DNA from: Candidatus Harrisonbacteria bacterium CG10_big_fil_rev_8_21_14_0_10_49_15
GTDB taxonomy: Bacteria; Patescibacteriota; Minisyncoccia; UBA6257; 1-14-0-10-44-23
DNA length: 61,977 nt
NCBI GenBank assembly: GCA_002773415.1
Contig: PFBD01000022.1
Coordinates: 735-62,711, forward strand
Reading direction: 5' to 3'
Shown here: positions 1,955-18,759 of the stretch, one piece after another
Position numbering within the stretch: position 1 is the stretch's first letter
Layout: each line of letters begins with the position of its first letter
Notes under the pieces: generated by a model
Told to the model about the DNA's origin: nothing
The model's input: only the letters and a program-made list of their open reading frames with translations
The model's database searches: none
Program-made: the position numbers and the translations under genes

Positions 1955-2179
1955 ATGAGTACGGAGATGCAGGTAAAAAAATTGAACGCAGAGGTAAAGA
2001 AACTGCGCAAGGAAGTGGCGGAATTCCGACAGCTATTTTTTGCTGTCCCCGAAGATAACGAGGGAGAGTATAAAGAGGTGTTTATTAAAAAAATCACAAA
2101 GCGCGCGAGTTCCGGCAATCCATTGAAGCAATTTTCCTCCAAAAAAGATTTTTTGCAACATGTACGCAAAGCCGGTTAA
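1955..2179 (+). CDS. Putative type II antitoxin (partner of downstream RelE/ParE-like toxin)
   Basis: 74-aa ORF from ATG 1955 (the track ORF at 1919 starts further upstream in the same frame). Coiled-coil N-terminus. 20-nt overlap with the toxin gene, the usual antitoxin-toxin layout. Confidence 0.5.
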   Translation: MSTEMQVKKLNAEVKKLRKEVAEFRQLFFAVPEDNEGEYKEVFIKKITKRASSGNPLKQFSSKKDFLQHVRKAG

Positions 2180-2450
2180 AATCTTCTTTGATAAAGATTT
2201 TGAGAAGGACGTAAAGAGGTTACCAAAGAAGATTCAAAACAAGCTTGCCGACTTGCTGACTGTTGCCCAGAAGAATATATTTGATCCAAGGCTCCATGTA
2301 AAATCACTCAAGTCGCCATTGAGTGATTTTTTAAGTTTTCGTATCACTCGCGACTATCGAGTTGGTTTTATGTTCACCCCCCGAGAAGATATTCAGCTCT
2401 TGGTTGCCGACAAGCGAGACAAGATTTACAAGCGCCTTGCAAGAAAATAG
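2160..2450 (+). CDS. RelE/ParE-family type II toxin
   Basis: 96 aa. KIFFDKDFEKDVKRLPKKIQNKL...FLSFRITRDYRVGFMF...IQLLVADKRDKIYK matches the RelE/ParE fold pattern from memory. Overlaps the upstream small ORF. Confidence 0.7.
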   Translation: MYAKPVKIFFDKDFEKDVKRLPKKIQNKLADLLTVAQKNIFDPRLHVKSLKSPLSDFLSFRITRDYRVGFMFTPREDIQLLVADKRDKIYKRLARK

Positions 2451-2502: not shown

Positions 2503-2584
2503 CTTGCTTTTCCTTGTCATTGCGAGCGCCGCGCCCCTCCGTAGCCTTGTGCGAAGGGGGGAAGCGTGGCAATCTATTATTACC

Positions 2585-6272: not shown

Positions 6273-8027
6273 ATGGAAAAAGAAACACGCAACTGTCAGA
6301 ACTGCAAAACCGATTTCGTCATTGAGCCGGAAGACTTTGCGTTTTACCAAAAAATAGACGTTCCACCGCCCACTTGGTGCCCGCAGTGCCGTATGGTCCG
6401 CCGATTTATTTTCCGCAATGAGCATAACCTGTACCGTCGGCCAGACAGCCACACTGGCGAGGATATCTTTTCCACAGTTCCAAAAGAGTCAGACGCAAAA
6501 GTATATGAGCGCAGTTTTTGGTGGTCAGACGGCTGGAATCCGCTAGACTATGGCCGCGACATTGATTGGAATAGGCCATTCCTGGAGCAGCTTAAAGAGT
6601 TGATGTATGAAGTACCATGGCCAAGCCGTAGTGCCTTGAATCTAGTAAACTCAGATTATTGCGCCAATCTTAATGGCGGCAAGAATAGTTATTTGTGTTT
6701 TCACGGTTTTGATATAGAAAACAGCGCATATGTGATCGGCTTTTCTAGTGTCAAAGAAGGATTTGATCTATATCAATCCCGGCACGCAGAGCTTTGCTAC
6801 GACAACTATATGGCAGACGAGGTCCAGCGCGTTTTTTTCTCTACCAACGTTGAAGAGAGTCATGATATTTGGTTCTCCAAGAACATTATCGGTTGCAATA
6901 ATATTTTTGGCTCAATTAACTTACGGAATAAAAGCTACTATATTTTCAACAAGCCGGTTTCTAAGGAGCAGCACAAACAGTTCATGACTGAATTTAACTC
7001 CGGTTTATTTAAGTCCGTAGAGGAGATGCGCCAAAAAGCAGAAGAACTTTGGCTCCAACACCCAAATCGGTTTACCCTGGCCATCAATGTGATAGATTCT
7101 ACGGGAGAGCACATTGAGCACTGCAAAAATGTGAAAGATAGCTATTTCATTCATAATGGTGAAGATATGAAGCATTGCCAGATGATCGAGGACGCGAAAG
7201 ATTGCTATGATCTTTCAATTGTCGGTCGCAAATCTGAGCTAATGTATGACTCTATGGTTGCCGGTGTTGAGGCACAGAACATAAAATTCTCTTTTAACTG
7301 TGTGGAAAGCATCAGTAATCTTGAATACTGTGTGATGTGCTTTGGTACAGCGAATGCTTTCGGCTGCGTGGGTTTGAAAAAAGGCGAATACGCTATTCTC
7401 AACAAAAAGTACTCCAAGGAGGAGTATAAAGAGCTTGTCATAAAGCTAAAACAGCACATGAATGATCTGCCATACACAGACGGCCAAGGGAGAGTCTATA
7501 AATATGGCGAATTTCTTCCCGCCGAGTTTAGCCCTTTGGCGTATAATGAAAGTTTAGCTCAAACATTTTTCCCGCTCACTAAAGAAGAAGCTGTAGCGCA
7601 AGGATACCAGTGGCGCGACGAGGAGAGGAGACAGATAGAGCCGACTATCCAAGCAGGGGATCTGCCGGATAATATTGCTGACGTGCAAGACGACGTCTTA
7701 AAGCAAATCATCGGTTGCCAAACCTGCGGTGCCGCCTTTCGCATCATCCCCATGGAGCTGGATTTTTACCGCAACATCAAGCTGCCCATCCCACGCCGCT
7801 GCCCGGACTGCCGCTTCGCCCGCCGCTTCCGTTTTGTAAACCCGCCTGTATTCCGGCTATCCAAATGCCACTGTTCCGGTGCTAAGGATGCAAGTGGTCA
7901 ATACGCCAACCAGGTGGCGCATTCACACGGTGACCAGCCCTGCCCCAACGAATTTGAAACCAGCTTCCGCGAAGAAGCTAAAGAAATAATCTACTGCGAG
8001 CAGTGCTACAAATCCGAAACCATCTGA
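6273..8027 (+). CDS. Cys-rich double zinc-ribbon protein, paralog 3
   Basis: 584-aa ORF. Starts MEKET like paralog 2. HTGEDIFSTVP subtype after the first ribbon. Tail is ...IIYCEQCYKSETI. Confidence 0.85.
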   Translation: MEKETRNCQNCKTDFVIEPEDFAFYQKIDVPPPTWCPQCRMVRRFIFRNEHNLYRRPDSHTGEDIFSTVPKESDAKVYERSFWWSDGWNPLDYGRDIDWNRPFLEQLKELMYEVPWPSRSALNLVNSDYCANLNGGKNSYLCFHGFDIENSAYVIGFSSVKEGFDLYQSRHAELCYDNYMADEVQRVFFSTNVEESHDIWFSKNIIGCNNIFGSINLRNKSYYIFNKPVSKEQHKQFMTEFNSGLFKSVEEMRQKAEELWLQHPNRFTLAINVIDSTGEHIEHCKNVKDSYFIHNGEDMKHCQMIEDAKDCYDLSIVGRKSELMYDSMVAGVEAQNIKFSFNCVESISNLEYCVMCFGTANAFGCVGLKKGEYAILNKKYSKEEYKELVIKLKQHMNDLPYTDGQGRVYKYGEFLPAEFSPLAYNESLAQTFFPLTKEEAVAQGYQWRDEERRQIEPTIQAGDLPDNIADVQDDVLKQIIGCQTCGAAFRIIPMELDFYRNIKLPIPRRCPDCRFARRFRFVNPPVFRLSKCHCSGAKDASGQYANQVAHSHGDQPCPNEFETSFREEAKEIIYCEQCYKSETI

Positions 8028-8123: not shown

Positions 8124-8390
8124 ATGCGTAAGCTCGAAAAACTCCTCAAGGCATTCGCTAACGCGCGGCGCCTGGCGATTCTCAAGTTCCTGTCCAAAGA
8201 AAAAGAAGCACATGTCAGCGCCATCTCTCGGGAGATAGGGCTATCCTTCAAGTCAACCTCTCGACACCTGGCAGTCCTATACGCGGTTGACCTGCTAGCA
8301 AAAGAGCAGCGCGACGTGGAAGTTTTTTATCGCTTGAAGGAAGAAGCCAAGCCATCGATTAAAACGATCTTAAACATACCCACAAGCTAA
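8124..8390 (+). CDS. ArsR/SmtB-family HTH transcriptional regulator
   Basis: 88 aa. ARRLAILKFLSKEKEAHVSAISREIGLSFKSTSRHLAVLYAVDLLAKEQRDVEVFYRL is a typical ArsR winged-helix pattern. Confidence 0.8.
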   Translation: MRKLEKLLKAFANARRLAILKFLSKEKEAHVSAISREIGLSFKSTSRHLAVLYAVDLLAKEQRDVEVFYRLKEEAKPSIKTILNIPTS

Positions 8391-8392: not shown

Positions 8393-8418
8393 CGGCTTAT
8401 TCGCACGAATTAGCCCAA
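8393..8418. repeat. 26-nt direct repeat, right copy, 8 nt upstream of paralog 4
   Basis: Perfect copy of 8060-8085. Confidence 0.9.
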
Positions 8419-8426
8419 CCCCTAGT

Positions 8427-10208
8427 ATGGCAGAGGAAGAGAAAAAATTTTGTCAAAATTGTCAGCAGGAGTTCACGATCGAGCCGGAGGATTTTGAGTT
8501 CTACCGGCGTATTGATGTCCCGCCGCCCATGTTTTGCTGGCAATGTCGCATGCAGCGCCGATTGGCTATTCGTAACGAGCGCTCGCTATATAAGAGAGCA
8601 TGTGGGCTCTGTAAGAAAGATACAATTAGCGTCTATTCACCAGGCAAAGATCTTAATGTCTACTGCCAAGACTGCTACAAATCAGACGCCTGGGATCCGT
8701 TTAGCTATGGTCGAGACTATGACCTTAGTAAGTCTCTTTTTGAGCAGATCGATAGATTATTTCGAGAAGTTCCTAGGCCAGCACTTAACCTAACTAACGC
8801 AGTCAACTGTACCTACTCAGAAGATTGCGTTAACTCGAAAAACTGTTATTTAGTCTTTGGTGCTTATCATGCGGACAACATAATGTATAGCTACACCCCG
8901 ATTTTTTCGCGCAATTCTGTAGATGTCACTTTTACTAATCAAGTAGAGATGAGCTACGAAGTAAGCAATTCCTTTGGCCTGTACAATGTAAGGTTTGCCC
9001 ATGTTGCCGACGAATGCATGGATTCTGCCTTTTTGTATGACTGCAAGGGTAGTAAAAATTGCTTTGGTTGTGTCAATCTGCGCAACAAAAACTACTATAT
9101 CTTTAATAAGCCCTATTCCAAAAATGATTATCAGGAAGAGATTAAAAAATGGGACATCGGTAGCTACACAACTCTTCAGCGGGCAAAACAAGAATTTCAA
9201 TATCTGCTCGACAAAACACCGCGACGTTGGGCCATAACCGCAAATTCAGTAGACGTCAGCGGTAACAATATCAATCATGCTAAAAATTGCCATTATTGCT
9301 TTTCAGTTACCGAGGGTTGCGAAAACCTAAAGTTTACTGTTATGTCTGGTTTGGCCATGAAGGATAGCTATGATGTCTGGGGCGGCGGAGATAAAAGCCA
9401 ATTGCTATACGAAGTTACTGGCTGTATAGGAGGGGAGCGAGTCATGTTTACCAACAATACGCACGGTTGTGTCAATGTGCAGTATTCTAATAAGTGTTTT
9501 CACTCTCAAAATCTCTTTGGCTGTGCCGGTATTAAAAAGAAAAACTACTGTATCCTAAACAAGCCGTATTCAAAAAGCGAGTACCATGCTTTGCTTCCCA
9601 GAATAATTGAGTCTGCTAAAAATAATCCCTTTATTGATAGGGCCGGACGAGAATACCGCTATGGCGAGTTCTTTCCTATGGAGCATATGCCTGTCGCGTA
9701 CAATGAATCAAATGCCTACGAACGTTTCCCGCTTACAAAACAGGAGGCAGAAGAGAAGGGGTTTTCTTGGCACTCCGAGCCAGAACGCAATTACACGATA
9801 ACTATGCAGACAGGCAGCCTTCCCGATCATATTAAAGACGCGCCAGACAGCATAACCAATGAGGTAATAGCCTGTGAGCATGCCGGCTCTTGTCAAGAAC
9901 ACTGCACTACTGCCTTTAAAATTACTCCTTCCGAACTAGACTTTTATCGACAAATTAATATTGCTTTACCCAGACTCTGCCCAAACTGTCGCCATGGCCA
10001 AAGAGACAAGAGAAGAAATGGGATGTTTGAGCTTCATGATCGCACCTGTCAGTGTGCTGGAGAAAGGTCAGAAAACGGGCTTTACCAAAACGAAATGAAA
10101 CATTTTCACGGTACAGAACACTGCCCGAATAGTTTTAAATCTGCTTTTGCGCCTGAAAGGAAGGAAATCATGTATTGCGAAAAATGTTATCAAGCTGAGC
10201 TTATTTAA
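8427..10208 (+). CDS. Cys-rich double zinc-ribbon protein, paralog 4
   Basis: 593-aa ORF. It is unique in having an extra CGLCKK...VYCQDCY knuckle after the first ribbon. Tail is ...IMYCEKCYQAELI. Confidence 0.85.
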   Translation: MAEEEKKFCQNCQQEFTIEPEDFEFYRRIDVPPPMFCWQCRMQRRLAIRNERSLYKRACGLCKKDTISVYSPGKDLNVYCQDCYKSDAWDPFSYGRDYDLSKSLFEQIDRLFREVPRPALNLTNAVNCTYSEDCVNSKNCYLVFGAYHADNIMYSYTPIFSRNSVDVTFTNQVEMSYEVSNSFGLYNVRFAHVADECMDSAFLYDCKGSKNCFGCVNLRNKNYYIFNKPYSKNDYQEEIKKWDIGSYTTLQRAKQEFQYLLDKTPRRWAITANSVDVSGNNINHAKNCHYCFSVTEGCENLKFTVMSGLAMKDSYDVWGGGDKSQLLYEVTGCIGGERVMFTNNTHGCVNVQYSNKCFHSQNLFGCAGIKKKNYCILNKPYSKSEYHALLPRIIESAKNNPFIDRAGREYRYGEFFPMEHMPVAYNESNAYERFPLTKQEAEEKGFSWHSEPERNYTITMQTGSLPDHIKDAPDSITNEVIACEHAGSCQEHCTTAFKITPSELDFYRQINIALPRLCPNCRHGQRDKRRNGMFELHDRTCQCAGERSENGLYQNEMKHFHGTEHCPNSFKSAFAPERKEIMYCEKCYQAELI

Positions 10209-10317
10209 TCATGAGCAATCTCAAACTTCGCCTAATGCATCTGACTGGTATCATCCGCTTTGGCTGGGGGATGGTTAAGATGAAAACGCGTATTTTTATC
10301 AGAAAAAGATTTAAAAT

Positions 10318-12084
10318 ATGAGCACAGAGACCCGTCAGTGCCAAAACTGCAAGCAGAATTTCTCCATTGAACCGGAGGATTTTGAGTTTTACGAAATGAT
10401 GCAGGTACCGCCGCCGACATTTTGTCCACAGTGTCGTTTTCAGCGCCGATTCTCCTTCTATAATCAGTTTCAGTTATTTAGGAAGGAAGACGCGCATACT
10501 GGAAATGAGATCTTCTCCACATTTCCGGCGCAGGCACCAATTAAAATCTACGAAAACGAGTATTGGTATTCCGACAGCTGGGACCCGATGAGTTACGGGC
10601 GTGATTATGATTTCTCTCGGCCGTTCTTTGAGCAGTACCGAAATCTGATGCGCGAAGTGCCATGGTTGTCTCGCTCCATTCAGCGTTTAGTGAATAGCGA
10701 CTACTGCAACCAGGCCTCAGACCTCAAAAACAGCTACCTTTGTTTTAATGGTGACAGCGGGGAAGAATGCCAGTACTGCATTTCCTTCAATCGCCTGAAG
10801 AACTGTATGGATCTATATCAGGCTAGCGATAATGAGCTTTGTTATGGAGGATTTAGTATCGCCGAAAGCTATCGCGATTTTTTTGGCTGCGCAAATGTCG
10901 GCTGCCAAAATACCTGGTTTTCCAGGAACTGCATTGACTGCGCCGACTGCTTCGGCTGCATAAACTTACGCCACAAAAAGTACCACATCTTCAATCAGCC
11001 ATACACAAAATATGAGTATCAGAAGAAGATAAAAGAGTTTGCTCTGCATACGGATACGGGTCTGCAATCAGCTAAGCAGGCCGCGCATGAATTCTGGCTC
11101 CGTAATCCGCTTCGCTATATGTCCGGCGCGCTGAACGAACAGGTGACGGGCGAATATATCTGGGAGTCAAAAAATGTAAAAAATTCATATCAAATAGTTA
11201 AAGGAGAGAACGTGCGCTACTCTGTTAACGCCGTTGAAGGAGTGAAAGACTCTTGGGACTACTCAAACTGGGGTGGCGGATCTGAGTTAATGTACGAAGC
11301 CGCGGTTTGCGGAGAAAAGTGCAGTGGGCTTAAGTTCTGCCTTGATTGTTGGCCGAACATGACGGACTCTGAATACTGCGTCAACTGCCATTCCTCCTCT
11401 AATCTGTTCGCCTGCGTTGGCTTGCGCTCTAAGCAGTACTGTATCTTCAACAAGCAGTATTCAAAGGAAGAGTACGAAGAATTAGTGCCAAAGATAAAGG
11501 CGCACATGAACGAAACGCCTTATACCGATGTCGGCGGCCGAGTATATAAGTACGGAGAATTTTTCCCGGCCGAATTCAGCCCCCTTGCCTATAATGAATC
11601 CGCTTCGCAAAGCTATCTGCCTCTTTCTAGGGAACAGGCAGAGGCCCAATCGCTACTTTGGCGGGATACTCCCAAAAAGGAGTTTCAGGTAACAATGCAG
11701 GCTACGGACCTTCCGGATGCGATCGCCGATGTGCAAGATTCAATTCTCAAAGAAGCGATTGCCTGTGGCGAATGCAAGCGCGCCTACCGCATCATTCCCA
11801 AGGAGCTAGAGTTTTATCGCCGCTTTGAACTACCGCTGCCACGTCGGTGCGCTGACTGTCGGCGAAATGAGCGCCTTCAATTCCGTAATCCAGTAAAGCA
11901 GTACGAGCGCCAGTGTCAGTGCGCTGGGGAAAAATCTAGCAACGGCGCTTACCAGAATCAAAACAAAGATCACCGGGTACATAACCCAGGCGAGCCGTGC
12001 CCGAATGAATTTCAAACTTCCTACGCCCCCGATCGAGAAGAAATAGTATATTGTGAATCATGCTATCAGCAGGAAGTCATATGA
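10318..12084 (+). CDS. Cys-rich double zinc-ribbon protein, paralog 5
   Basis: 588-aa ORF. HTGNEIFSTFP subtype like paralog 3. Tail is ...IVYCESCYQQEVI. Confidence 0.85.
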   Translation: MSTETRQCQNCKQNFSIEPEDFEFYEMMQVPPPTFCPQCRFQRRFSFYNQFQLFRKEDAHTGNEIFSTFPAQAPIKIYENEYWYSDSWDPMSYGRDYDFSRPFFEQYRNLMREVPWLSRSIQRLVNSDYCNQASDLKNSYLCFNGDSGEECQYCISFNRLKNCMDLYQASDNELCYGGFSIAESYRDFFGCANVGCQNTWFSRNCIDCADCFGCINLRHKKYHIFNQPYTKYEYQKKIKEFALHTDTGLQSAKQAAHEFWLRNPLRYMSGALNEQVTGEYIWESKNVKNSYQIVKGENVRYSVNAVEGVKDSWDYSNWGGGSELMYEAAVCGEKCSGLKFCLDCWPNMTDSEYCVNCHSSSNLFACVGLRSKQYCIFNKQYSKEEYEELVPKIKAHMNETPYTDVGGRVYKYGEFFPAEFSPLAYNESASQSYLPLSREQAEAQSLLWRDTPKKEFQVTMQATDLPDAIADVQDSILKEAIACGECKRAYRIIPKELEFYRRFELPLPRRCADCRRNERLQFRNPVKQYERQCQCAGEKSSNGAYQNQNKDHRVHNPGEPCPNEFQTSYAPDREEIVYCESCYQQEVI

Positions 12085-12131
12085 ACATAAGAACAGCCTG
12101 CCCCGTAGTGAGCTTTGCTCTAGTACTGGGG

Positions 12132-12155
12132 TGCTACCAAGCGGAAGTGGTCTGA
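12132..12155 (+). pseudogene. Orphan 3'-terminal stub of the Cys-rich paralog family (CYQAEVV*)
   Basis: tgc tac caa gcg gaa gtg gtc tga, 48 nt after the paralog 5 stop and directly after a ccccgta...tactgggg hairpin repeat. Confidence 0.5.
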
Positions 12156-12243
12156 AAACGGATCGCAGGAATGTTGCAGGCCGTTTTCGTGAGCCGTTCC
12201 TGAAGTGGTATACTAAATAGAACTAATCAACCTGGTTTATCAA

Positions 12244-13686
12244 ATGGCACAAGGAAAGATTCAGATAATTAAATACGCACCGCCGCCGCCGGAGTTGCCC
12301 GTCATGGGTAAGGGCAGTCCGGAGGAGATCTGCTTCATCGGCCGGACCAACTACGTGGCCGCGCTTGAGGAAAAGAAGTTTGTTTTTGGTATCAAAAGGG
12401 ACGACCGCCGCCGCCACGTCTACATTGTTGGTAAGTCCGGTGTCGGTAAATCAAAGCTCTTGGAGTTGCTGCTACGCCAAGACGTGGCTTATGGCAAGGG
12501 GCTCTGCTTGATGGATCCGCACGGCGACGTTATTGAAGACCTGCTCGTGGCCATTCCCAAGGAGCGCATTAAAGACGTCTGTATCATTGATCCGGCAGAC
12601 AGCGAGTACCCGGCTTCGTTTAACCCGCTGGCCAACGTGAACGTAGACTTTAAGCACCAGCTGACCCAAGGCCTGATCGAGGTCATGGAAAAGCAGTTCG
12701 GTGCCAACTGGACGCCGCGTCTGGAGCACGTTTTCCGCTTCACCACCCTGGCTCTTTTAGACTACCCGCACGCGACCATGCGCGGCATGATCAGCATGCT
12801 CACAGACCGTAACTACCGCCAAAAAGTGATTGAGTACATAGAAGACGACATGGTCAAGCGCTTCTGGGCAATTGAATTCGCAGACTGGTCTGAAAAGTTT
12901 GATACCGACGCCATCATCCCGCTCGTTAACAAGCTCGGCCAGTTTTTATCCGATCCAATGCTGCGCAACATCTTCGGTCAAAAAGAGAACAAGATAGACC
13001 TGGAGAGGTTGATGAACGAAAAGAAAATAGTTCTAATAAACTTGTCTAAGGGCCGCCTTGGCGAAGAAAACTCCAGCTTCTTTGGTGCTATGTTCTTGAC
13101 CAAGATTAAACAGGCCGGTATGCAACGCGCCCGCATGCCTGAAAAAGACCGCACCGACTTCTACCTGTACGTGGACGAGTTTCAAAACGTGGTTACGGAG
13201 ACCTTTGAAAACCTCATGTCCGAGGCGCGTAAATACGGCATCGCCATCACCATCGCCCACCAGTACATGGGTCAGCTCTTGCCCAAGGTCCTCTCTGCCG
13301 TGCTTGGTAACACCGGTACCATGATCAGCTTCCGTGTTGGTGGCGCGGACGCCGAGGTCCTGGAGTACGAGTTTGCCCCAATTTTTAAAGTGAAAGACTT
13401 CATCAACCTGGGTAAGCAAGAGTTTTACATCAAATTGATGATCGACGGCGAGTCTTACGACCCGTTCTCCGCCGCGACTCTATTCGTTAAAAAGCCGGTC
13501 CACCAGTCCTATCGAGAAGAAATCATCGCCTCAAGTCGCGAGCAGTTTGCCATCACCGCCGGCGCCGCCAAAAAGTTGATAGAAGAAGAAGAATCTACTA
13601 TTATCCGAAGTGCCAGCGAAAAGGCCATCATCACCGGCCAAAAGGTAGATACTAGTATTGAAGAACACCCCGAGCCATTGATCTAG
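12244..13686 (+). CDS. TraD/VirD4-like P-loop ATPase (T4SS coupling-protein-like, soluble)
   Basis: 480 aa. Walker A is VGKSGVGKS and Walker B-like is FYLYVDEFQN. ARKYGIAITIAHQYMGQL resembles the TraG/TraD C-terminal region. No N-terminal TM segments visible. Confidence 0.75.
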   Translation: MAQGKIQIIKYAPPPPELPVMGKGSPEEICFIGRTNYVAALEEKKFVFGIKRDDRRRHVYIVGKSGVGKSKLLELLLRQDVAYGKGLCLMDPHGDVIEDLLVAIPKERIKDVCIIDPADSEYPASFNPLANVNVDFKHQLTQGLIEVMEKQFGANWTPRLEHVFRFTTLALLDYPHATMRGMISMLTDRNYRQKVIEYIEDDMVKRFWAIEFADWSEKFDTDAIIPLVNKLGQFLSDPMLRNIFGQKENKIDLERLMNEKKIVLINLSKGRLGEENSSFFGAMFLTKIKQAGMQRARMPEKDRTDFYLYVDEFQNVVTETFENLMSEARKYGIAITIAHQYMGQLLPKVLSAVLGNTGTMISFRVGGADAEVLEYEFAPIFKVKDFINLGKQEFYIKLMIDGESYDPFSAATLFVKKPVHQSYREEIIASSREQFAITAGAAKKLIEEEESTIIRSASEKAIITGQKVDTSIEEHPEPLI

Positions 13687-13704
13687 CAAAGCTAGATCAA
13701 TGGC
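13674..13704 (+). terminator. 14-bp perfect hairpin overlapping the ATPase stop codon
   Basis: gccattgatctagc aaa gctagatcaatggc. There is no clear T-run, so the terminator function is uncertain. Confidence 0.4.
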
Positions 13705-13752
13705 AATTTCTAAGTTCTAATATCTAAATTCTAAATAAATTCCAAATATCAA

Positions 13753-13821
13753 ACCAGCTACGCCCCCGACCGTCCGGAAATCGTGTACTGCGAAACCTGC
13801 TACCAAAATGAAGTCGCCTAG
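13753..13821 (+). pseudogene. Orphan 3'-terminal stub of the Cys-rich paralog family (TSYAPDRPEIVYCETCYQNEVA*)
   Basis: A 22-codon in-frame match to the conserved tail of paralogs 1-5, with no upstream gene body. Confidence 0.75.
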
Positions 13822-13886
13822 GCTATTCGCGAGTAGAAAACACCTCTTAATTGATTGTTAATGACTAACCGTGGTAACATTTAGCC

Positions 13887-14117
13887 ATGAAAAAATCGAC
13901 TCAAAAATTTACAGCTGTCTATAGGAAATCAGGCAAATGGTATATCGGTTGGATAGAAGAAGTCCCCGGGGCTAATACCCAGGGTAAAACTATCAAAGAG
14001 CTTAAAGAAAACTTGAAAGAAGCTGTAACGCTGATTTTAGAATCAAACCGAATACTGAATCGCGAAATCACCGACGATGGCAAAGTAACTCGCGAAAAAC
14101 TAACGGTTTCCCTCTAG
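13887..14117 (+). CDS. hicB: HicB-family antitoxin
   Basis: 76 aa. KFTAVYRKSGKWYIGWIEEVPGANTQGKTIKELKENLKEAVTLILE is the HicB N-terminal fold pattern. TAACAT at 13875-13880 lies 6 nt before the ATG. Confidence 0.75.
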   Translation: MKKSTQKFTAVYRKSGKWYIGWIEEVPGANTQGKTIKELKENLKEAVTLILESNRILNREITDDGKVTREKLTVSL

Positions 14118-14314
14118 TCTTTACTAAGACGAAGCGAGTCACGCTTATAAAGCATATCCGGAAAAGCGGATGTGTATTTGTTCGTGAGGGCGCGAAACAT
14201 AGCCTATTTTTTAATCCAAGTAATCATCGATTTTCAACTGTGCCACGACACACGGAAATTGATAAATTTCTGGCCAGAAAAATTTGCCGAGATCTTGGGA
14301 TTATAGAAGTATGA
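14117..14314 (+). pseudogene. hicA: HicA-like toxin reading frame lacking any ATG/GTG/TTG start
   Basis: Open frame ...TKTKRVTLIKHIRKSGCVFVREGAKHSLFFNPSNHRFSTVPRHTEIDKFLARKICRDLGIIEV* is HicA-like. The first in-frame canonical start is too late (a GTG near the end). Absent from the ORF track. Confidence 0.5.
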
Positions 14315-14366
14315 CCGCCCAGAAATATTGTACTGCGAGCAGTGCTATCAGCAGGAGGTGGCCTGA
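14313..14366 (+). pseudogene. Orphan 3'-terminal stub of the Cys-rich paralog family (DRPEILYCEQCYQQEVA*)
   Basis: A 17-codon match to the paralog tail that begins inside the hicA-like stop codon. Confidence 0.7.
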
Positions 14367-14425
14367 CCAATGGATAAGCCTATTCCGTATTGACAAAGTC
14401 AATACGTTGTGTATACTAAGAGTAT

Positions 14426-14713
14426 ATGAATAAATCACAATCTCAAATCCAGGTTAGGATTGACAGTAAAACTAAAAAAGAAGCCAGCAACACCCTCAGT
14501 GAATTAGGTTTAGATTTGTCTTCCGCTATTAAGCTATTTCTTCGCAGCGTTATTGTTACGCAGTCTATTCCCTTTGATATTAGAACCAAGAACGGATTTA
14601 CTCGTGCGCAGGAGAGAAAGATTCTAAAAGAGACGGAAATGGCAATAAAGCACGGAAAAAGATATTCCAGCGCAAAAGAGTTGCACGCCAGCATCTTTAC
14701 CGATGAGGAATAG
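14426..14713 (+). CDS. RelB/DinJ-family antitoxin
   Basis: 95 aa. IQVRIDSKTKKEASNTLSELGLDLSSAIKLFLRSVIVTQSIPFDI is the ribbon-helix-helix DinJ pattern. TATACT at 14412-14417 lies 8 nt before the ATG. Confidence 0.75.
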   Translation: MNKSQSQIQVRIDSKTKKEASNTLSELGLDLSSAIKLFLRSVIVTQSIPFDIRTKNGFTRAQERKILKETEMAIKHGKRYSSAKELHASIFTDEE

Positions 14714-14887
14714 AAAGACATGAAGTACTCAATCGTTGAGCTTCGTAAATATCGGGAGCCATCCAAAACTGTTTAAAGATTGATCTTCGCTCATCTAATC
14801 TTCATATTGTTTTCACTTTAATTGAGTAAAAGGCTGGCACGCTTCTCGCTAGTTTGATTTTCCCCTAATCAGCTAATCAGCTCGGGC

Positions 14888-15193
14888 ATGATTCTCATTT
14901 ACACAACTCACAAAAATACCGAGGCGGCCGTCAACATAGGCGACCTCCTCATCAAAGATAAGCTCGCGGCCTGCGTTAACATCTGGCCGATTCAGTCTAT
15001 CTATCGCGACGGTGATGAAATAAAAAGCCACCTAGAAGCGGCCATGCTCATCAAAACCTTTGAGCAAAAACTGCAGCAGATAGAGGAGGTAATAGAGAAA
15101 AATCATCCCGACAAAACGCCCTTTATCGGCGCCGTGGATGTCCGCCGCTTTAACCGAAGCTACCGCGAGTGGATGATGGAGGTGGTGAAGTAG
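14888..15193 (+). CDS. cutA: Divalent-cation tolerance protein CutA
   Basis: 101 aa. LAACVNIWPIQSIYRDGDEI...ML.IKT is the CutA1 pattern. Confidence 0.8.
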   Translation: MILIYTTHKNTEAAVNIGDLLIKDKLAACVNIWPIQSIYRDGDEIKSHLEAAMLIKTFEQKLQQIEEVIEKNHPDKTPFIGAVDVRRFNRSYREWMMEVVK

Positions 15194-15279
15194 GGGAATA
15201 ACCCCTCCCAGCCTCCCCTTACTCTAAGAGGAGGAGTTCACTTTACATTTTCTGAAAAAGAAGGTATTTTATTTACATT

Positions 15280-16821
15280 ATGAAATTTTCAATATCCTCA
15301 AAACTAAATAAAGCCAGTATTAAAAATGTTGAAGCCTTCTTTTTGCCGGTCTGGGTAGAGAAGGAGCGCTATCAGTATGACGACGCTGTCTCGGTTTTAG
15401 ACGCTGCAGACCAAAAACTGGTCAAGAACTTCCTGAAGGAACGCGAGCCTAAGGCGGGCGAGGTGCACCTTATCCGGCTCAACAAAAAGCCGGGCTTTGT
15501 GTTCTTGTCCGTGGAAAAGGAGTTTAATGGAAAAAAGCTGACCTTGCTCGCGCGCAAGTATATCCGCACCGCTAAAAAGCAAGGCTTTAAGGAAGTAGGC
15601 ATCTACATTGACGACCTCGCAGATGATGACCTGGCCAAGACTGAAATCGCCGGCTTATTCGTCCGCAACTCCCTGCTTGCCCACTACGACTTTAGCGAGG
15701 AGTTCAAAGCCGCCCCTAAGGACGGTTGGAAGCGCGTTCAAAACCTAACCATCTTTAGCGACCATGATGAAAAAGAGTTGCGCGCCACTGTAAAAGAAAA
15801 CGAAATAATCGCCGAAGGCGTAAACCGATGCCGTACTCTGAGTAACTACCCGCCCGTAAAGATGACTCCAGAGGGGCTGGCCGAAGCGGCACGAGATGTA
15901 GCCAACGAGTGCCGGCCCGCCAAAGGCGGTGCCAGCTCTATCAAAGTGACTGTTTTTGATGAGAAGAAGCTGTACAGCGAAGGCATGAACGCCATTTTAG
16001 CGGTTGGCGGCGGATCAGATAATCCGCCACGTCTAGTCATTATGGAGTATAAAGGAGGTCAAGATGGAGACCAGCCGCTCGCAATAGTCGGCAAAGGAAT
16101 CACCTTTGACTCCGGTGGCTTGAATATCAAGCCCGGCGAATACATGAGCGACATGCACATGGATATGAGTGGTGGCTCGGCCACTATCTACGCGGTAGCG
16201 GCTATCGCCAAACTAAAACTGCCAATAAACGTTATCGGTTTTATTCCGGCCGCGGAAAACATGCCAAGTGGTAAAAGCTACCGCCAGAACGACATCATCA
16301 CCGCTTATGGCGGCAAGACCATGGAGATAGGCAATACCGACGCCGAGGGGCGCGTGGTTATGGCTGACGCGATTGAATACGCAAAGACAAAGAAGCCAGC
16401 CCTGCTCATGACCATCGCCACTCTTACCGGCGCCGCCATGGTCGCGCTCGGCACGCGCTGGAGCGGCCTCTTTGTAAAGGATAATAAGGATCTCCGCGCC
16501 GCCCTGGAGAGTATTGGCGAGACCTCTGGCGACGCCGTCTGGCCACTACCGCTGACTGAGCAAAATGAAAAGGAGGTGGAAGGTATTTTCGCAGATGTTA
16601 CCAACACCCACAAATCCAACTCCCGCTATGGCGGTGCCAGCTCAGCCGCCGGATTCCTATCGCAGTTTGCCGGCGACCAAACTTTCGCACACCTAGACAT
16701 GGCTCCGCGCATGACCACAAACCCGGAAGAAGAGGCCCTTAGCTGCGGCGCCGCCGGTTTTGGTGTAGCCTACTTTGTAGAACTCGCGAAGCACTGGGAA
16801 ACCATCAGAAGTACGCTATAA
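15280..16821 (+). CDS. pepA: Leucyl aminopeptidase (M17)
   Basis: VGKGITFDSGGLNIKPG, DMSGGSA and NTDAEGRVVMADA motifs. Confidence 0.92.
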   Translation: MKFSISSKLNKASIKNVEAFFLPVWVEKERYQYDDAVSVLDAADQKLVKNFLKEREPKAGEVHLIRLNKKPGFVFLSVEKEFNGKKLTLLARKYIRTAKKQGFKEVGIYIDDLADDDLAKTEIAGLFVRNSLLAHYDFSEEFKAAPKDGWKRVQNLTIFSDHDEKELRATVKENEIIAEGVNRCRTLSNYPPVKMTPEGLAEAARDVANECRPAKGGASSIKVTVFDEKKLYSEGMNAILAVGGGSDNPPRLVIMEYKGGQDGDQPLAIVGKGITFDSGGLNIKPGEYMSDMHMDMSGGSATIYAVAAIAKLKLPINVIGFIPAAENMPSGKSYRQNDIITAYGGKTMEIGNTDAEGRVVMADAIEYAKTKKPALLMTIATLTGAAMVALGTRWSGLFVKDNKDLRAALESIGETSGDAVWPLPLTEQNEKEVEGIFADVTNTHKSNSRYGGASSAAGFLSQFAGDQTFAHLDMAPRMTTNPEEEALSCGAAGFGVAYFVELAKHWETIRSTL

Positions 16822-16835
16822 TATAAGTAACCTGT

Positions 16836-16899: not shown

Positions 16900-18759
16900 A
16901 TGCCCCAGCACCGTTTTCAGTTACAAAAGCCGGAAAAAGAGCAAGACGTCACTTACCTTGCCCGAACAAATTACCGAAACGACAATCGGCTCTTTGGCAT
17001 AAAGCGCAGAGACCGCCGTCAACACATGTATGTTGTTGGAAAGACCGGTGTGGGTAAGTCTGCGCTTCTGCACAACATGATCGTCCAGGACATCATGCAC
17101 GGCGACGGTGTCTGTGTGGTGGATCCGCACGGTGAGCTGGTAGAGGACGTGCTACCGATGATCCCGAAAGAACGTGCCGAAGACGTCATCTACTTCAACC
17201 CGGCAGACATCGACTTTCACGTCGGCTTTAACGTGCTTGAGCTGCCCGACCCAAGATACAAGCACTTAGTCGCCTCCGGTCTGATGGGTATCTTCACTAA
17301 GATCTGGGCGAACGTCTGGTCTGCCAGAATGGAGTATATTTTAAACAACGCCATCCTGGCGCTTTTAGACACGCCCGGGACAACTCTGCTCGGCATCCCG
17401 AGGATTCTCGTAGACAAAGAGTACCGCCAAAAAATAATCAATAACCTCAACGACCCGGTGGTGCGCGCCTTTTGGATAAACGAGTACGAAGAGTGGCAGG
17501 ATAAGTTTAGAAACGAAGCCATAGCCCCTATTCAAAACAAAGTTGGTCAGTTCCTTTCCACGAGCATCATTCGTAACGTGGTTGGTCAGAACAAAAGCAC
17601 CATCAATATCTTTGATTTAATGAACGAGCAGAAGATCTTTTTGGTCAACGTCTCCAAGGGGCGCATCGGTGAAGACAACTCCGCTCTGCTCGGCGCCATG
17701 CTCATCACCAAAATCCAGCTCTCGGCTATGGAGCGTGTCCGTATTCCCGAGGAAGACAGAAAAGACTTTTATCTATATGTGGATGAGTTTCAAAACTTTG
17801 CAACAGACTCCTTTGCCGGCGTTCTTTCCGAAGCCCGTAAATATCGCCTAAACCTTATCATAGCCCACCAGTATATCGGTCAGCTAATGACAGACTCCTC
17901 CACTGTCGTCCGCGACGCTGTTTTTGGAAACTGCGGCACTATGGCGGTCTTTCGCGTCGGCGCGGCCGACGCGGAGTATTTTGAAAGCGAATTCACTCCG
18001 GAGTTCGTCATTGAAGACATCGTCAACATCCCGAACTACTGCATCTATATTAAACTGATGGTTAACGGCATCACCTCGCGTCCGTTTTCCGCGTCCACAA
18101 TCGCTCCCTTTGAGGTCCAGGCAGACGCCGCCGGTGCTAACGCCATTATTGAGATGTCTCGTAAAAAGTACGCCCGTGCCCGAGACAAAGTAGAGGCCGA
18201 CATCAACCGCTGGGCCAGTGGTGGCGAAGAAGAAGATGAGGACGGAGAGATGGCGCCAGGCACGGCCCGGCCCAGTGAAGCGAAAAAAGAAGGAGAGTTC
18301 TTTGAATCTGTCTGCTCCGTCTGCGGCAAAAAAGCCAAGCTACCATTTAAACCAAACCCAAACCGCCCAGTCTACTGCTCCGAGTGTCTGGAAAAGGTTA
18401 AGGCCGGCGAGATAGAGGCGCCTAAGATCCTAAAGACGCCGTCTCAAGACCGCATGGCCAAAGCCTCGGAAACGCTCGCCGCCATGGGTATTGAGTTTGA
18501 CCAAGCTGAAAAACGTCCAAGCCAAAATCATAAAAAGAGCAGTGGCGACTCTCGCGGTCAAAAAAGAGGCGGTGATTACAGAAAGAAAAATAGCGGAGGG
18601 AAGCCCGACCGCCAACCGGACTCGTCTGGCCCCCAGCCAAAGGAAGCCTCTCTCGGCGACCTAAAAGACGACGGCCGCCAGCCGCAAGTAAAAGAATCTA
18701 AAGACGCCGAAAGTATCAAAGCGGCGCTCCGCGCCGCCCTGGAAAAAAAGAATCAGTAA
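16900..18759 (+). CDS. TraD/VirD4-like P-loop ATPase, paralog 2, with C-terminal zinc ribbon and basic tail
   Basis: 619 aa. VGKTGVGKS and FYLYVDEFQNF motifs. C-terminal CSVCGKKAKLPFKPNPNRPVYCSECLEK, then a low-complexity Lys/Arg/Gly/Ser tail. Confidence 0.75.
   Translation: MPQHRFQLQKPEKEQDVTYLARTNYRNDNRLFGIKRRDRRQHMYVVGKTGVGKSALLHNMIVQDIMHGDGVCVVDPHGELVEDVLPMIPKERAEDVIYFNPADIDFHVGFNVLELPDPRYKHLVASGLMGIFTKIWANVWSARMEYILNNAILALLDTPGTTLLGIPRILVDKEYRQKIINNLNDPVVRAFWINEYEEWQDKFRNEAIAPIQNKVGQFLSTSIIRNVVGQNKSTINIFDLMNEQKIFLVNVSKGRIGEDNSALLGAMLITKIQLSAMERVRIPEEDRKDFYLYVDEFQNFATDSFAGVLSEARKYRLNLIIAHQYIGQLMTDSSTVVRDAVFGNCGTMAVFRVGAADAEYFESEFTPEFVIEDIVNIPNYCIYIKLMVNGITSRPFSASTIAPFEVQADAAGANAIIEMSRKKYARARDKVEADINRWASGGEEEDEDGEMAPGTARPSEAKKEGEFFESVCSVCGKKAKLPFKPNPNRPVYCSECLEKVKAGEIEAPKILKTPSQDRMAKASETLAAMGIEFDQAEKRPSQNHKKSSGDSRGQKRGGDYRKKNSGGKPDRQPDSSGPQPKEASLGDLKDDGRQPQVKESKDAESIKAALRAALEKKNQ

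What the first reader, a model, noticed from the sequence alone, without database searches (positions are those of the whole stretch)
12085..14366. Three orphan copies of the paralog 3' terminus interleaved with an ATPase gene and toxin-antitoxin genes (cassette-like layout)
The layout after paralog 5 is as follows. Stub CYQAEVV* lies at 12132-12155. The TraD-like ATPase lies at 12244-13686. Stub TSYAPDRPEIVYCETCYQNEVA* lies at 13753-13821. hicB and the hicA-like frame lie at 13887-14314. Stub DRPEILYCEQCYQQEVA* lies at 14313-14366 and begins inside the hicA-like stop codon. The relB/dinJ gene starts at 14426. Each stub is only the last 7-22 codons plus the stop of the Cys-rich family, with no gene body. 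One explanation is that the array once had at least eight copies and three gene bodies were replaced by cargo, with breakpoints at the conserved tail. The other is that the conserved tail sequence acts as a recombination or insertion site that is regenerated when a cassette enters. That would be analogous in logic to attC or shufflon sites, but no recombinase is present in the window.
Basis: seen in the sequence. Interest (0 to 1): 0.75.

Follow-up and report, generated by a model that had tools for sequence, protein, structure and literature searches.

The report
Leftover gene ends in a decaying array
The three orphan gene ends are real, but they are most likely leftovers of three more copies of a fast-changing cysteine-rich gene family whose bodies were deleted around a conserved ATPase gene and two decaying toxin-antitoxin inserts, not sites of a cassette-capture system.

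Summary
Observation confirmed. All three stubs lie at the stated coordinates. A profile built only from other genomes finds them (stub2 E=2.7e-15, stub3 E=1.1e-10, stub1 E=0.03). The CYQxEVx-stop pattern occurs 6 times in the window against 0 expected.

Interpretation partly supported. The window is core chromosome of a Paceibacteria (CPR) bacterium. The "TraD-like ATPase" is not cargo: it is 75-90% identical across more than 100 related loci, usually after the same two upstream genes. In 76 of 91 relatives the Cys-rich paralogs (PAR) lie just downstream of this ATPase, where stub2 and stub3 sit.

The stubs differ from each other and from the five intact tails as much as the intact paralogs differ among themselves (52-76% versus 50-74%), mostly at third codon positions. 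They are relics of three further old paralogs, not regenerated sites. hicBA and relB are decaying inserts: the hicA start codon is ATG>ACG and relB has no toxin partner. The closest relative has ATPase then CutA directly.

Relatives carry 5'-only, 3'-only and head-tail relics. The stubs form no hairpin, and Pfam finds no recombinase. Some strain pairs do break at conserved PAR ends, so ordinary homologous crossover at gene termini stays open.

This is ordinary gene decay in a hypervariable array.

The parts
1955..2450 (+). A small antitoxin-like ORF (1955-2170) followed by a RelE/YoeB-like toxin gene (2160-2450), at the left border of the PAR array.
   Evidence: NCBIfam TIGR02116 Txe/YoeB E=9.7e-5 and TIGR02385 RelE E=1.4e-3, both below the curated cut-offs. 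The upstream 72-aa ORF is seen in translation and has no Pfam hit.
2582..4366 (+). PAR1, an intact Cys-rich paralog. The likely ATG is at 2582; the mechanical ORF starts at 2504.
   Evidence: Family HMM E=6.6e-221. The N-terminus MPQSETRTCQNC is shown. The tail is ...RPEIVYCEQCYQQEVV*.
4414..6225 (+). PAR2, intact.
   Evidence: Family HMM E=2.2e-218.
6273..8027 (+). PAR3, intact.
   Evidence: Family HMM E=1.6e-242.
8124..8390 (+). An ArsR-type HTH gene embedded in the array.
   Evidence: Pfam HTH_5 E=1.4e-7.
8427..10208 (+). PAR4, intact.
   Evidence: Family HMM E=2.1e-227. A weak PF23477 match at residues 52-86, E=2.4e-4, is below cut-off.
10318..12084 (+). PAR5, intact.
   Evidence: Family HMM E=9.1e-249. 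AlphaFold2 model with pLDDT 84.
12131..12155 (+). Stub1: an eroded relic of a PAR 3' end (CYQAEVV*), lying between PAR5 and the ATPase1 start.
   Evidence: nhmmer E=0.032 against model positions 125-149. Exact match to the CYQxEVx-stop pattern, 0 expected.
12244..13686 (+). ATPase1: a VirD4/TraD-like P-loop ATPase and conserved anchor gene of the locus. It is not cargo.
   Evidence: Pfam DUF87, T4SS-DNA_transf, TrwB_AAD_bind and TraG-D_C. 366 relatives were found; the best 80 are 75-83% identical and L082 is 90% identical. Most tabulated relatives have the same up1-up2 neighbours.
13674..13704 (.). A perfect 14-nt palindrome spanning the ATPase1 stop codon, followed by an AT-rich flank up to about 13743.
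   Evidence: Inverted repeat I3, 100% complementary. Similar low-complexity AT-rich flanks follow ATPase1 in L055, L087, L088, L023 and L042.
13744..13821 (+). Stub2: the last ~25 codons plus the stop of a lost PAR paralog. It has no start codon.
   Evidence: nhmmer E=2.7e-15. Protein HMM positions 549-573, E=1.8e-8. It is 59-75% identical to the intact tails over 75 nt, with differences mainly at the third codon position.
13887..14117 (+). hicB antitoxin gene.
   Evidence: Pfam UPF0150 E=7.9e-5, below cut-off. 487 homologues, several of them named HicB by their sources; the closest is 71% identical.
14129..14314 (+). hicA toxin frame with its start codon lost (ACG at 14129-14131 where a relative has ATG); probably a pseudogene.
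   Evidence: Pfam HicA_toxin E=8.6e-10. The frame has no ATG, GTG or TTG. Comparison with L158 hicA (MKRKDLIKH versus TKRVTLIKH) is.
14313..14366 (+). Stub3: the last 17 codons plus the stop of another lost PAR paralog. It abuts the hicA stop.
   Evidence: nhmmer E=1.1e-10. Protein HMM positions 556-573, E=1.4e-4. 70% identical to stub2, with differences by codon position of 3, 2 and 11.
14386..14417 (+). Promoter-like site (TTGACA-16-TATACT) overlapping a 9-bp-stem palindrome, upstream of relB.
   Evidence: Consensus scan, 11 of 12 matches, and a hairpin at 14386-14406. This is a consensus match only.
14426..14713 (+). relB/dinJ antitoxin gene with no toxin partner. Only an 18-codon ORF follows, in 14714-14887.
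   Evidence: Pfam RelB E=7.4e-13. Translation of 14700-14890 and a failed tblastn with RelE/YafQ toxins.
14888..16821 (+). CutA (14888-15193) and an M17 leucyl aminopeptidase (15280-16821): conserved right-hand neighbours of the slot.
   Evidence: Pfam CutA1 E=2.9e-25; Peptidase_M17. Synteny in relatives.
16900..18759 (+). ATPase2: a second VirD4-like ATPase with a CxxC-x17-CxxC zinc finger. It closes the variable region.
   Evidence: Pfam TrwB_AAD_bind and PF23477 zf_Tbcl_2, E=6.3e-13. NCBIfam TIGR04272 E=7.5e-14.

Best explanation
The three stubs are relics of three additional members of the PAR family (~590 aa, Cys-rich). The family forms a variable tandem array around a conserved VirD4-like ATPase in Paceibacteria.

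Inferred history. The ancestor had ATPase1 - PAR_x - PAR_y - CutA, which is the common layout in relatives. Two type II toxin-antitoxin modules, hicBA and relB(E), inserted into the spacers after PAR_x and PAR_y. Deletions then removed the promoter and body of each PAR. What survives is the few codons next to the downstream element:
- stub1 lies before the ATPase1 start;
- stub2 lies before hicB;
- stub3 lies before the relB promoter.

One deletion runs from the ATPase1 3' flank to 25 codons before the PAR_x stop. The other runs from the last codons of hicA to 17 codons before the PAR_y stop. The toxin-antitoxin modules are now decaying too.

The tail stays recognisable because it encodes the last zinc knuckle of the protein, which is its most conserved part. 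That conservation is at the protein level, not a DNA site.

Shown: the homology, the position in the usual PAR slot, the divergence pattern, the absence of the whole segment in the closest relative, and relics of all kinds in relatives. Inferred: the order of events, and the idea that ends survive because deletions reaching a neighbouring functional element are not tolerated.
For: 1. The stubs are real family 3' ends.
2. ATPase1 is a fixed gene. It is 75-83% identical in 80 GTDB species loci and 90% in L082, and most tabulated relatives show up1-up2-ATPase1 synteny.
3. PAR genes lie within 4 kb downstream of ATPase1 in 76 of 91 loci and upstream in only 6 of 86. Stub2 and stub3 therefore occupy the usual PAR slot.
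4. Stubs versus intact tails are 52-76% identical at the DNA level. Stub versus stub is 70-75%, and intact versus intact is 50-74%. Differences are mainly at the third codon position, for example 3/2/11, 2/2/9 and 5/5/14. Each stub's best DNA match is to a tail in another genome, not in this window.
5. The closest relative, L082, has PAR-PAR-Doc-ATPase1 followed 61 nt later by CutA. It has no stubs and no hicBA or relB.
6. Relics are common in relatives. Across the window and 132 loci there are 205 intact copies, nine 5'-only relics, five 3'-only relics (two of them in this window), head-tail fusions, and five disrupted full-length copies. L031 has a 3' stub about 60 nt after ATPase1, plus several head stubs. 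L093 and L094 are 100% identical apart from two deletions inside a PAR.
7. L099 shows PAR - degraded hicB - PAR 5' stub - PAR - CutA. A hicB module inside a PAR array with a truncated neighbour has therefore arisen elsewhere.
8. The toxin-antitoxin modules are decaying: hicA has ATG>ACG and relB has no toxin. The TA-bearing 14001-15000 window has the lowest GC of the whole profile (0.41; its neighbours are 0.47-0.49).
9. Other toxin-antitoxin genes sit at other array borders: RelE-like at 2160-2450, Doc in L082, and AbrB-like plus Doc in L083.
Against: Three relics that are all 3' ends of 25 codons or fewer is an unusual concentration if deletion endpoints were random. The proposed reason (ends are protected by neighbouring functional elements) is an inference, not a test.

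Short relics from the middle of the gene would be hard to detect, so the apparent restriction to conserved ends is partly a detection bias.

Stub2 and stub3 still match the family consensus perfectly and keep their stop codons. Either the deletions are recent or there is some constraint; no strain close enough to date them was found.

No genome with intact PAR_x or PAR_y at these positions and more than 90% ATPase identity was recovered, so the ancestral state is inferred from more distant relatives. The closest relative, L082, has nothing in the slot. That is equally compatible with the whole stub-TA segment having arrived later from elsewhere.
Confidence: 0.78

Rival explanations
1. The conserved PAR termini act as preferred crossover points for ordinary RecA-type or homology-facilitated recombination. 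Array segments, including hitch-hiking toxin-antitoxin modules, would be exchanged between strains as cassette-like blocks. On this view the stub-TA-stub segment was imported from another Paceibacteria array, and the stubs are the recombination anchors or footprints.
For: L098 and L099 are 99.96% identical for 8.2 kb and then differ completely. Identity returns about 45 nt before a PAR stop, inside the PEIVYCE motif. In L023/L044 a 96.6% identity tract begins at the CQNC head motif and ends at a PAR stop. The L100/L101 identity ends right after CQNC. L082 has nothing in the slot. The TA-bearing 1-kb window has the lowest GC in the profile. A degraded hicB lies inside another PAR array in L099.
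Against: There are only a handful of strain pairs, all from metagenome assemblies. The right-hand L098 junction lies about 155 nt from a contig end, so a mis-join is possible.

Homologous crossovers between paralog ends give intact chimeric genes, not headless stubs. The left junctions of stub2 and stub3 (ATPase1 flank, hicA stop) have no PAR homology, so an illegitimate event is needed anyway.

No donor was found: the nearest HicB is 71% identical, and the HicB relatives examined lie outside PAR arrays. Other breakpoints fall mid-gene (L025/L107, L093/L094).
Confidence: 0.13
2. A dedicated site-specific cassette system, like integron attC sites or a shufflon. The tail sequence would be the recombination site, regenerated at each insertion by a recombinase encoded elsewhere in the genome.
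For: Only the layout supports it: stub-gene-stub-gene in one orientation.
Against: - The ATPase 'cassette' is a fixed core gene.
- The copies are 65-77% identical, with a codon-position pattern of divergence.
- Stub lengths differ.
- DNA folding of the stubs is no better than shuffles, with z from -0.9 to +1.3 on either strand.
- Pfam finds no recombinase in 62 kb.
- There is no structural polymorphism among the same-population contigs recovered, which come from at least ten samples.
- hicBA and relB carry what look like their own promoters.
- Relatives show 5' stubs as often as 3' stubs.
Confidence: 0.02
3. The stubs are kept by selection for a function of their own. Examples would be part of the regulatory region of the downstream gene, or donors for gene conversion that repairs or homogenises PAR tails.
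For: Stub2 and stub3 are free of frame-breaking changes and match the consensus. Each lies 23-90 nt upstream of the next promoter-like site or start codon. The more divergent strain contig L141 has 9 SNPs in the ATPase1 3' end and none in stub2.
Against: The closest relative does without them. The stubs are no closer to the resident tails than unrelated paralogs are, so there is no sign of gene conversion. Stub1 is eroded to 8 codons. The SNP comparison rests on one 770-nt contig.
Confidence: 0.05

Closest known systems
Pseudogene relics left by birth-and-death turnover of tandem paralog arrays in bacterial genomes (general knowledge of deletional bias and gene decay)
   Same: The fragments are homologous to a resident family. 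They have no start codon or promoter, sit where relatives have intact copies, coexist with other kinds of wreck in relatives, and are absent from the nearest relative.
   Different: All three relics here are 3' termini of 25 codons or fewer. They lie in a very small, gene-dense CPR genome. Two still match the family consensus perfectly.
Integron gene cassettes with attC sites, including toxin-antitoxin cassettes in chromosomal superintegrons (own knowledge)
   Same: There is a one-orientation series of short conserved elements alternating with small genes, among them toxin-antitoxin modules. Toxin-antitoxin modules may also protect neighbouring DNA from deletion.
   Different: There is no integrase, no attI and no hairpin-forming imperfect palindrome. 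The repeated element is the coding 3' end of a protein family and diverges like coding sequence. One of the supposed cassettes is a fixed core gene. Breakpoints are not constant.
Integrative elements that target the 3' end of a gene (tRNA, tmRNA or protein gene) and carry a replacement copy, leaving a direct repeat (own knowledge)
   Same: An orphan copy of a gene's 3' end lies downstream of inserted DNA.
   Different: Such repeats are identical or nearly so and flank an element that encodes an integrase. Here the copies are about 70% identical, no integrase is present, and there is no intact target gene immediately upstream of stub2 or stub3.
Template repeats of diversity-generating retroelements, and silent partial cassettes such as pilS or vls used for antigenic variation (own knowledge)
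   Same: Promoter-less partial copies of a gene's 3' portion lie near the expressed genes, in a lineage (CPR) where diversity-generating retroelements are common.
   Different: Pfam finds no reverse transcriptase in the window. The mismatches are not adenine-specific. The stubs contain only the invariant last 8-25 codons and no variable region, so they store no diversity.
Type II toxin-antitoxin modules HicAB and RelBE/DinJ-YafQ
   Same: HicB, HicA and RelB are recognisable by profile or by homologues. The gene order is antitoxin then toxin, as in relative L158.
   Different: Both toxins look inactivated. hicA has lost its ATG, and relB has no partner.

Membership tests
Integron cassette array (attC sites) | An integron integrase (tyrosine recombinase IntI) with attI and Pc next to the array | tested here: not met
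   Pfam scans of the window's ORFs found no phage-integrase, recombinase or transposase family. Eleven ORFs have no hit above threshold. The rest of the genome was not available (gene table).
Integron cassette array (attC sites) | attC: an imperfect inverted repeat that folds as single-stranded DNA into a hairpin | tested here: not met
   Single-strand DNA folds of the three stubs, on both strands, gave z-scores from -0.88 to +1.28 against 200 shuffles.
Integron cassette array (attC sites) | Cassettes are mobile, with presence or absence varying between close relatives at a constant junction | tested here: not met
   The ATPase is present in all related loci, and most tabulated ones have the same upstream neighbours. 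The stub junctions differ (8, ~25 and 17 codons). The same-population contigs recovered, from at least ten samples, show no structural variant.
Shufflon or other invertible multi-site system | Short recombination sites in inverted orientation, plus a dedicated recombinase (Rci-type) | tested here: not met
   All eight tail copies are direct repeats on the + strand. No recombinase was found.
Diversity-generating retroelement (TR/VR pair) | A reverse transcriptase gene nearby, and a TR that differs from the VR almost only at adenines | tested here: not met
   Pfam found no reverse transcriptase in the window. Stub-versus-tail differences involve all bases and concentrate at third codon positions. 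Identity is only 52-76%.
Integrative island with duplication of a target gene's 3' end | Near-identical direct repeats (attL/attR) flanking an element that carries an integrase | tested here: not met
   The repeats are 65-77% identical. There is no integrase. The flanked segments are a core ATPase and small toxin-antitoxin modules.
Silent-cassette antigenic variation (pilS/vls type) | Silent copies carry the variable part of the gene and donate it by gene conversion | tested here: not met
   The stubs hold only the most conserved last 8-25 codons. There is no tract of raised identity between a stub and any resident tail.
Relic of a decayed member of the PAR paralog family | Significant homology to the family, in frame and ending at the family's stop codon | tested here: met
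   nhmmer E=2.7e-15, 1.1e-10 and 0.032 with a profile built without the window's own copies. Protein HMM E=1.8e-8 and 1.4e-4.
Relic of a decayed member of the PAR paralog family | Lies where relatives carry intact family members | tested here: met
   A PAR lies within 4 kb downstream of ATPase1 in 76 of 91 loci. Stub1 lies in the upstream array that L082 and L083 share.
Relic of a decayed member of the PAR paralog family | Divergence typical of an independent paralog that evolved under protein-level constraint before truncation | tested here: met
   The identity range equals that of intact versus intact copies, and third-position differences dominate.
Relic of a decayed member of the PAR paralog family | An intact ortholog of each lost copy in a closely related genome (direct before-and-after evidence) | tested here: inconclusive
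   The nearest relative found, L082 (ATPase 90% identical), has an empty slot. Same-population contigs are identical. Before-and-after pairs exist only in other lineages (L093/L094, L098/L099).
HicAB type II toxin-antitoxin module | A HicB antitoxin and a HicA toxin encoded side by side, both translatable | tested here: not met
   The HicA domain is present (E=8.6e-10) and HicB homologues are abundant. But the hicA frame has no ATG, GTG or TTG. ACG stands where L158 has ATG. It is a module in decay, not an intact one.

The most novel reading that the evidence does not exclude
The conserved head and tail of PAR genes are the crossover points at which Paceibacteria strains swap, lose and gain whole PAR gene bodies and hitch-hiking toxin-antitoxin modules, by ordinary homologous or homology-facilitated recombination. 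The region next to the VirD4-like ATPases would then behave as a recombinase-free cassette array under diversifying selection. The window's stubs would be footprints of such exchanges rather than of simple in-place deletions.
Probability: 0.15. Interest if true: 0.55.

Novelty: new member of a known kind. Interest (0 to 1): 0.3.

Why it matters
For the finding itself, little changes. It is gene decay plus toxin-antitoxin insertion, not a new recombination system, so it should not be filed as a cassette or attC analogue.

The context is more interesting than the stubs. A very large, unnamed Patescibacteria protein family lies in tandem arrays of zero to at least six copies beside one or two 'orphan' VirD4-like ATPases. 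The search found at least 6,798 homologues, with no Pfam family above threshold and no significant structural match in the PDB. Array content differs between strains that are otherwise more than 99.9% identical. That pattern is typical of loci under diversifying selection, such as host or phage interaction genes.

A 2025 preprint counts 5,713 VirD4-like coupling-protein homologues in CPR genomes. Only 148 of them are near virB4, and their role is unexplained. The fixed ATPase1-PAR-ATPase2 neighbourhood offers a concrete hypothesis about their partners.

The stubs also show that even streamlined CPR genomes carry recent pseudogene debris.

Tried and rejected
1. DGR template-repeat idea. Rejected: Pfam found no reverse transcriptase, there is no adenine-specific mismatch pattern, and identity is only about 70%.

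2. Read-through or frameshift extension of ATPase1 or HicA into the stubs. Stub2 is in frame with ATPase1, but three further stop codons intervene. Stub3 is in the +1 frame relative to hicA. Rejected.

3. attC-like hairpins. The folds are no better than shuffles.

4. Assembly artefact. Rejected: several independent assemblies give the same structure. Some short contigs do start or end near the stubs (13724, 13781, 13798, 14298, 14347). This fits low coverage and SNPs (there is one at 14299); no alternative join was seen.

5. Population-level structural variants. Exact-protein look-ups of HicB, RelB, PAR5 and ATPase1 returned only the same arrangement.

6. A donor for the hicBA cassette. The best HicB homologue among 5.8 billion proteins is 71% identical. 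The two relatives examined lie in a toxin-antitoxin island and between housekeeping genes, not in PAR arrays.

7. Extending stub1 upstream as a longer decayed tail. Only 25 nt are supported by nhmmer. A 'CTGCCCC' match further upstream is too short to count.

8. Confirming a relE remnant after relB by tblastn. No significant match.

9. Function of PAR from structure. The AlphaFold2 model is confident (pLDDT 84), but Foldseek against the PDB gave nothing at E<=0.001. The weak hits (E>2) are mostly left-handed beta-helix proteins.

10. Homology between the N-proximal segment (residues 48-92) and the tail. hhalign was not significant in the PAR5-type alignment (probability 2%). The N-terminal and C-proximal ribbons are clear internal repeats (98.7%).

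11. A nucleotide 'head' profile for orphan 5' ends. It was noisy because it cross-hits the internal repeat, so I relied on the protein-level classification.

Full report
**1. What is there**

The window is core chromosome of a Patescibacteria (Paceibacteria/Parcubacteria-type) bacterium. It carries housekeeping genes throughout, including an aminoacyl-tRNA synthetase, LepA, MurB, SecA, the riboflavin genes, the F-type ATPase operon, and ribosomal protein S2 with EF-Ts. Pfam finds no recombinase, transposase or reverse transcriptase.

The left 19 kb reads as follows:
- up1 and up2, two genes of unknown function;
- a small toxin-antitoxin pair, with a RelE/YoeB-like toxin at 2160-2450;
- five intact Cys-rich paralogs of ~590 aa (PAR1-5: 2582-4366, 4414-6225, 6273-8027, 8427-10208, 10318-12084), with an ArsR-type gene between PAR3 and PAR4;
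- stub1;
- a VirD4/TraD-like ATPase (ATPase1, 12244-13686);
- stub2, hicB, the hicA frame, stub3, relB;
- CutA, an M17 peptidase, and a second VirD4-like ATPase (ATPase2, 16900-18759).

**2.

The three stubs are at the stated coordinates.
- The DNA pattern for CYQxEVx-stop occurs six times in the window: three intact tails plus the three stubs. None is expected in 100 shuffles.
- A nucleotide profile of PAR 3' ends, built only from other genomes, detects stub2 (E=2.7e-15), stub3 (E=1.1e-10) and stub1 (E=0.032). It finds no other orphan tail in 62 kb.
- No orphan 5' end was found.
- Independent assemblies from several samples give the same structure at 99.9% identity or more, so this is not a mis-assembly.

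**3. The ATPase is an anchor, not cargo**

A scan of one genome per GTDB species found 366 relatives of ATPase1. The best 80 are 75-83% identical, and all are Patescibacteria MAGs. A metagenome scan added a 90%-identical relative, L082.

The gene order up1 - up2 - ATPase1 - [CutA] - [PAR array] - M17 peptidase - ATPase2 recurs across these loci. A PAR gene lies within 4 kb downstream of ATPase1 in 76 of 91 loci with enough sequence, and upstream in only 6 of 86.

Stub2 and stub3 therefore sit in the usual PAR slot. The five intact copies and stub1 occupy the rarer upstream slot, which the nearest relatives L082 and L083 share.

**4. The stubs are old, independent paralogs**

| Comparison | DNA identity |
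|---|---|
| Stub versus intact tail | 52-76% |
| Stub versus stub | 70-75% |
| Intact versus intact tail | 50-74% |

Differences fall mainly at third codon positions: 3/2/11 for stub2 versus stub3, 2/2/9 for stub3 versus PAR1, and 5/5/14 for stub2 versus PAR5. Each stub's best DNA match is the tail of a PAR in some other genome, not a tail in this window.

This is how coding sequence looks after it has diverged under protein-level constraint and then been cut. It is not how a site copied at each insertion would look. There is no adenine-specific mismatch pattern.

The tail is conserved because it is the last zinc knuckle of the protein.
- It matches the CxxC-x17-CxxC/zf_Tbcl_2 family weakly.
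- ATPase2 carries a clear copy of that module.
- The N-terminal ribbon of PAR is repeated near the C-terminus (hhalign probability 98.7%).

**5. Relics of all kinds are common in relatives**

A family HMM was run over the window plus 132 loci.

| Class | Count |
|---|---|
| Intact copies | 205 |
| 5'-only relics | 9 |
| 3'-only relics (two are in this window) | 5 |
| Head-tail fusions scored as internal deletions | 2 |
| Disrupted full-length copies | 5 |
| Middle-only relics | 0 |

L027 and L048 look like further head-tail fusions by inspection.

Individual cases:
- L031 has a 3' stub about 60 nt after ATPase1, several ~10-codon head stubs, and a CQNC|ESCY head-tail fusion.
- L083 starts its array with a 3' stub.
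- L093 and L094 are identical except for 57- and 91-nt deletions inside one PAR.
- In L098, a strain 99.96% identical to L099 over 8.2 kb, a PAR has collapsed to 64 head codons joined to a tail at two CxxCG knuckles.

The family as a whole has no 3' bias. The restriction to gene ends is partly a detection bias, because the ends are the most conserved parts. I suggest it is also an edge effect: deletions that run into a neighbouring functional element are not tolerated. That last point is inference.

**6. The toxin-antitoxin genes are secondary and decaying**

- hicA has ACG where the homologous gene in L158 has its ATG, and no other start codon is in frame.
- relB has no toxin partner.
- The TA-bearing 14-15 kb window has the lowest GC in the profile (0.41).
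- The nearest HicB homologue is 71% identical, and the relatives examined lie in unrelated contexts.
- Toxin-antitoxin genes also sit at other array borders: here at 2160-2450, a Doc/Fic gene in L082, and an AbrB-like gene plus Doc in L083.
- L099 has PAR - degraded hicB - PAR 5' stub - PAR - CutA.
- The closest relative, L082, goes from ATPase1 to CutA in 61 nt, with no stubs and no toxin-antitoxin genes.

**7. Best explanation**

The ancestral layout was ATPase1 - PAR_x - PAR_y - CutA. hicBA and relB(E) inserted into the spacers. Two deletions then removed the PAR promoters and bodies. One ran from the ATPase1 3' flank to codon -25 of PAR_x. The other ran from the end of hicA to codon -17 of PAR_y.

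Stub1 is an older, more eroded relic in the upstream array. The AT-rich stretch left of stub2 resembles ATPase1 3' flanks in several relatives. That evidence is only suggestive, because the sequence is low in complexity. I put confidence at about 0.78.

**8. What remains open**

Some strain pairs break at conserved PAR ends.
- L098/L099: identity resumes about 45 nt before a PAR stop.
- L023/L044: an identity tract runs from the CQNC head motif to a stop codon.
- L100/L101: identity ends right after CQNC.

This suggests that conserved termini serve as homologous crossover points. That would make the array cassette-like at the population level without any dedicated recombinase. The sample is small and comes from metagenome assemblies, and other breaks fall mid-gene. 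Such crossovers would also give chimeric genes rather than headless stubs.

I give this reading about 0.13 as the origin of the window's stubs. A true attC/shufflon-type system gets about 0.02, because there are no hairpins, no recombinase, no constant junction and no polymorphism.

**9. Context worth noting**

PAR is a very large unnamed family. The search found at least 6,798 homologues at E<=1e-20. Those that carry a name are called hypothetical or uncharacterized, apart from one 'Trm112 family' label. None of the window's paralogs reaches a Pfam cut-off. The AlphaFold2 model is confident (pLDDT 84) but has no significant PDB match.

Its fixed neighbourhood with two VirD4-like ATPases is relevant to a 2025 preprint. 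That work reports 5,713 VirD4-like coupling-protein homologues in CPR genomes, only 148 of them near virB4.

**10. Verdict**

This is ordinary gene decay in an unusual, hypervariable array: a new member of a known kind. Interest is 0.3.

Noticed in passing
window 2582-12084 and 12244-18759; loci L001-L133: The Cys-rich PAR family is huge (at least 6,798 homologues) and unnamed, with no Pfam family above threshold and no significant PDB structural match. It forms arrays of zero to at least six copies that usually lie just downstream of ATPase1, one of two conserved VirD4-like ATPases. This suggests a functional link between PAR proteins and these 'orphan' coupling-protein homologues.
   Followed up: partly
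L098 11040-11240 versus L099 8141-8341; L023/L044; L100/L101; L093/L094: Strains that are 94-100% identical in their flanks differ in PAR array content. Several identity breaks fall at the CQNC head motif, at a CxxCG knuckle, or inside the last ~45 nt of a PAR gene. Others are internal deletions of 57 and 91 nt.
   Followed up: partly
window 14129-14131: The hicA toxin frame has ACG where the homologous hicA of L158 has its ATG start. No ATG, GTG or TTG is in frame, so the toxin is probably inactivated.
   Followed up: yes
window 14714-14887: relB is followed by 174 nt holding only an 18-codon ORF (MKYSIVELRKYREPSKTV*). The expected RelE/YafQ-type toxin is missing.
   Followed up: partly
window 1955-2450: A further small toxin-antitoxin-like pair sits between up2 and PAR1: a 72-aa ORF plus a RelE/YoeB-like toxin (below the curated cut-offs). 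Toxin-antitoxin genes therefore mark both borders of the array. Relatives L082 and L083 have Doc-type toxins at the PAR-ATPase1 junction.
   Followed up: partly
window 4331-4428 and 6190-6287: The PAR1 tail, spacer and PAR2 start are 86.7% identical over 98 nt to the PAR2 tail, spacer and PAR3 start. The shared 47-nt spacer contains a strong hairpin (DNA fold z = -2.96). This hints at a recent duplication or gene conversion at these junctions.
   Followed up: partly
window 18295-18399 (ATPase2 residues 466-500): ATPase2 carries a clear CxxC-x17-CxxC/zf_Tbcl_2 zinc finger (E about 1e-13). The PAR tails and the PAR4 N-proximal segment match the same module type weakly.
   Followed up: partly
window 10318-12084 (PAR5 residues 4-45 and 479-520): The PAR proteins have an internal repeat. 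The N-terminal zinc ribbon recurs near the C-terminus (hhalign probability 98.7%). Head-tail fusion mini-ORFs in L027, L048, L098 and L031 look like deletions between repeated zinc modules.
   Followed up: partly
window 13733, 13735, 13741: Three clustered SNPs lie in the AT-rich spacer just upstream of stub2, in two other assemblies of the same population (L134, L140). Another contig, L141, has nine mostly 3-spaced SNPs in the ATPase1 3' end (13593-13651), which suggests a recombination tract.
   Followed up: no
window 13674-13704: A perfect 14-nt inverted repeat (GCCATTGATCTAGC / GCTAGATCAATGGC) spans the ATPase1 stop codon.
   Followed up: no
window 8124-8390: An ArsR-type helix-turn-helix regulator gene is embedded inside the PAR array, between PAR3 and PAR4.
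   Followed up: no
L152 3225-3470: In a relative's hicBA locus, several tandem copies of a ~63-nt repeat (…TTTTCACTGCGTGAAAACT…GATGAACACTTCGTGTTCATC…) lie between hicB and hicA.
   Followed up: no
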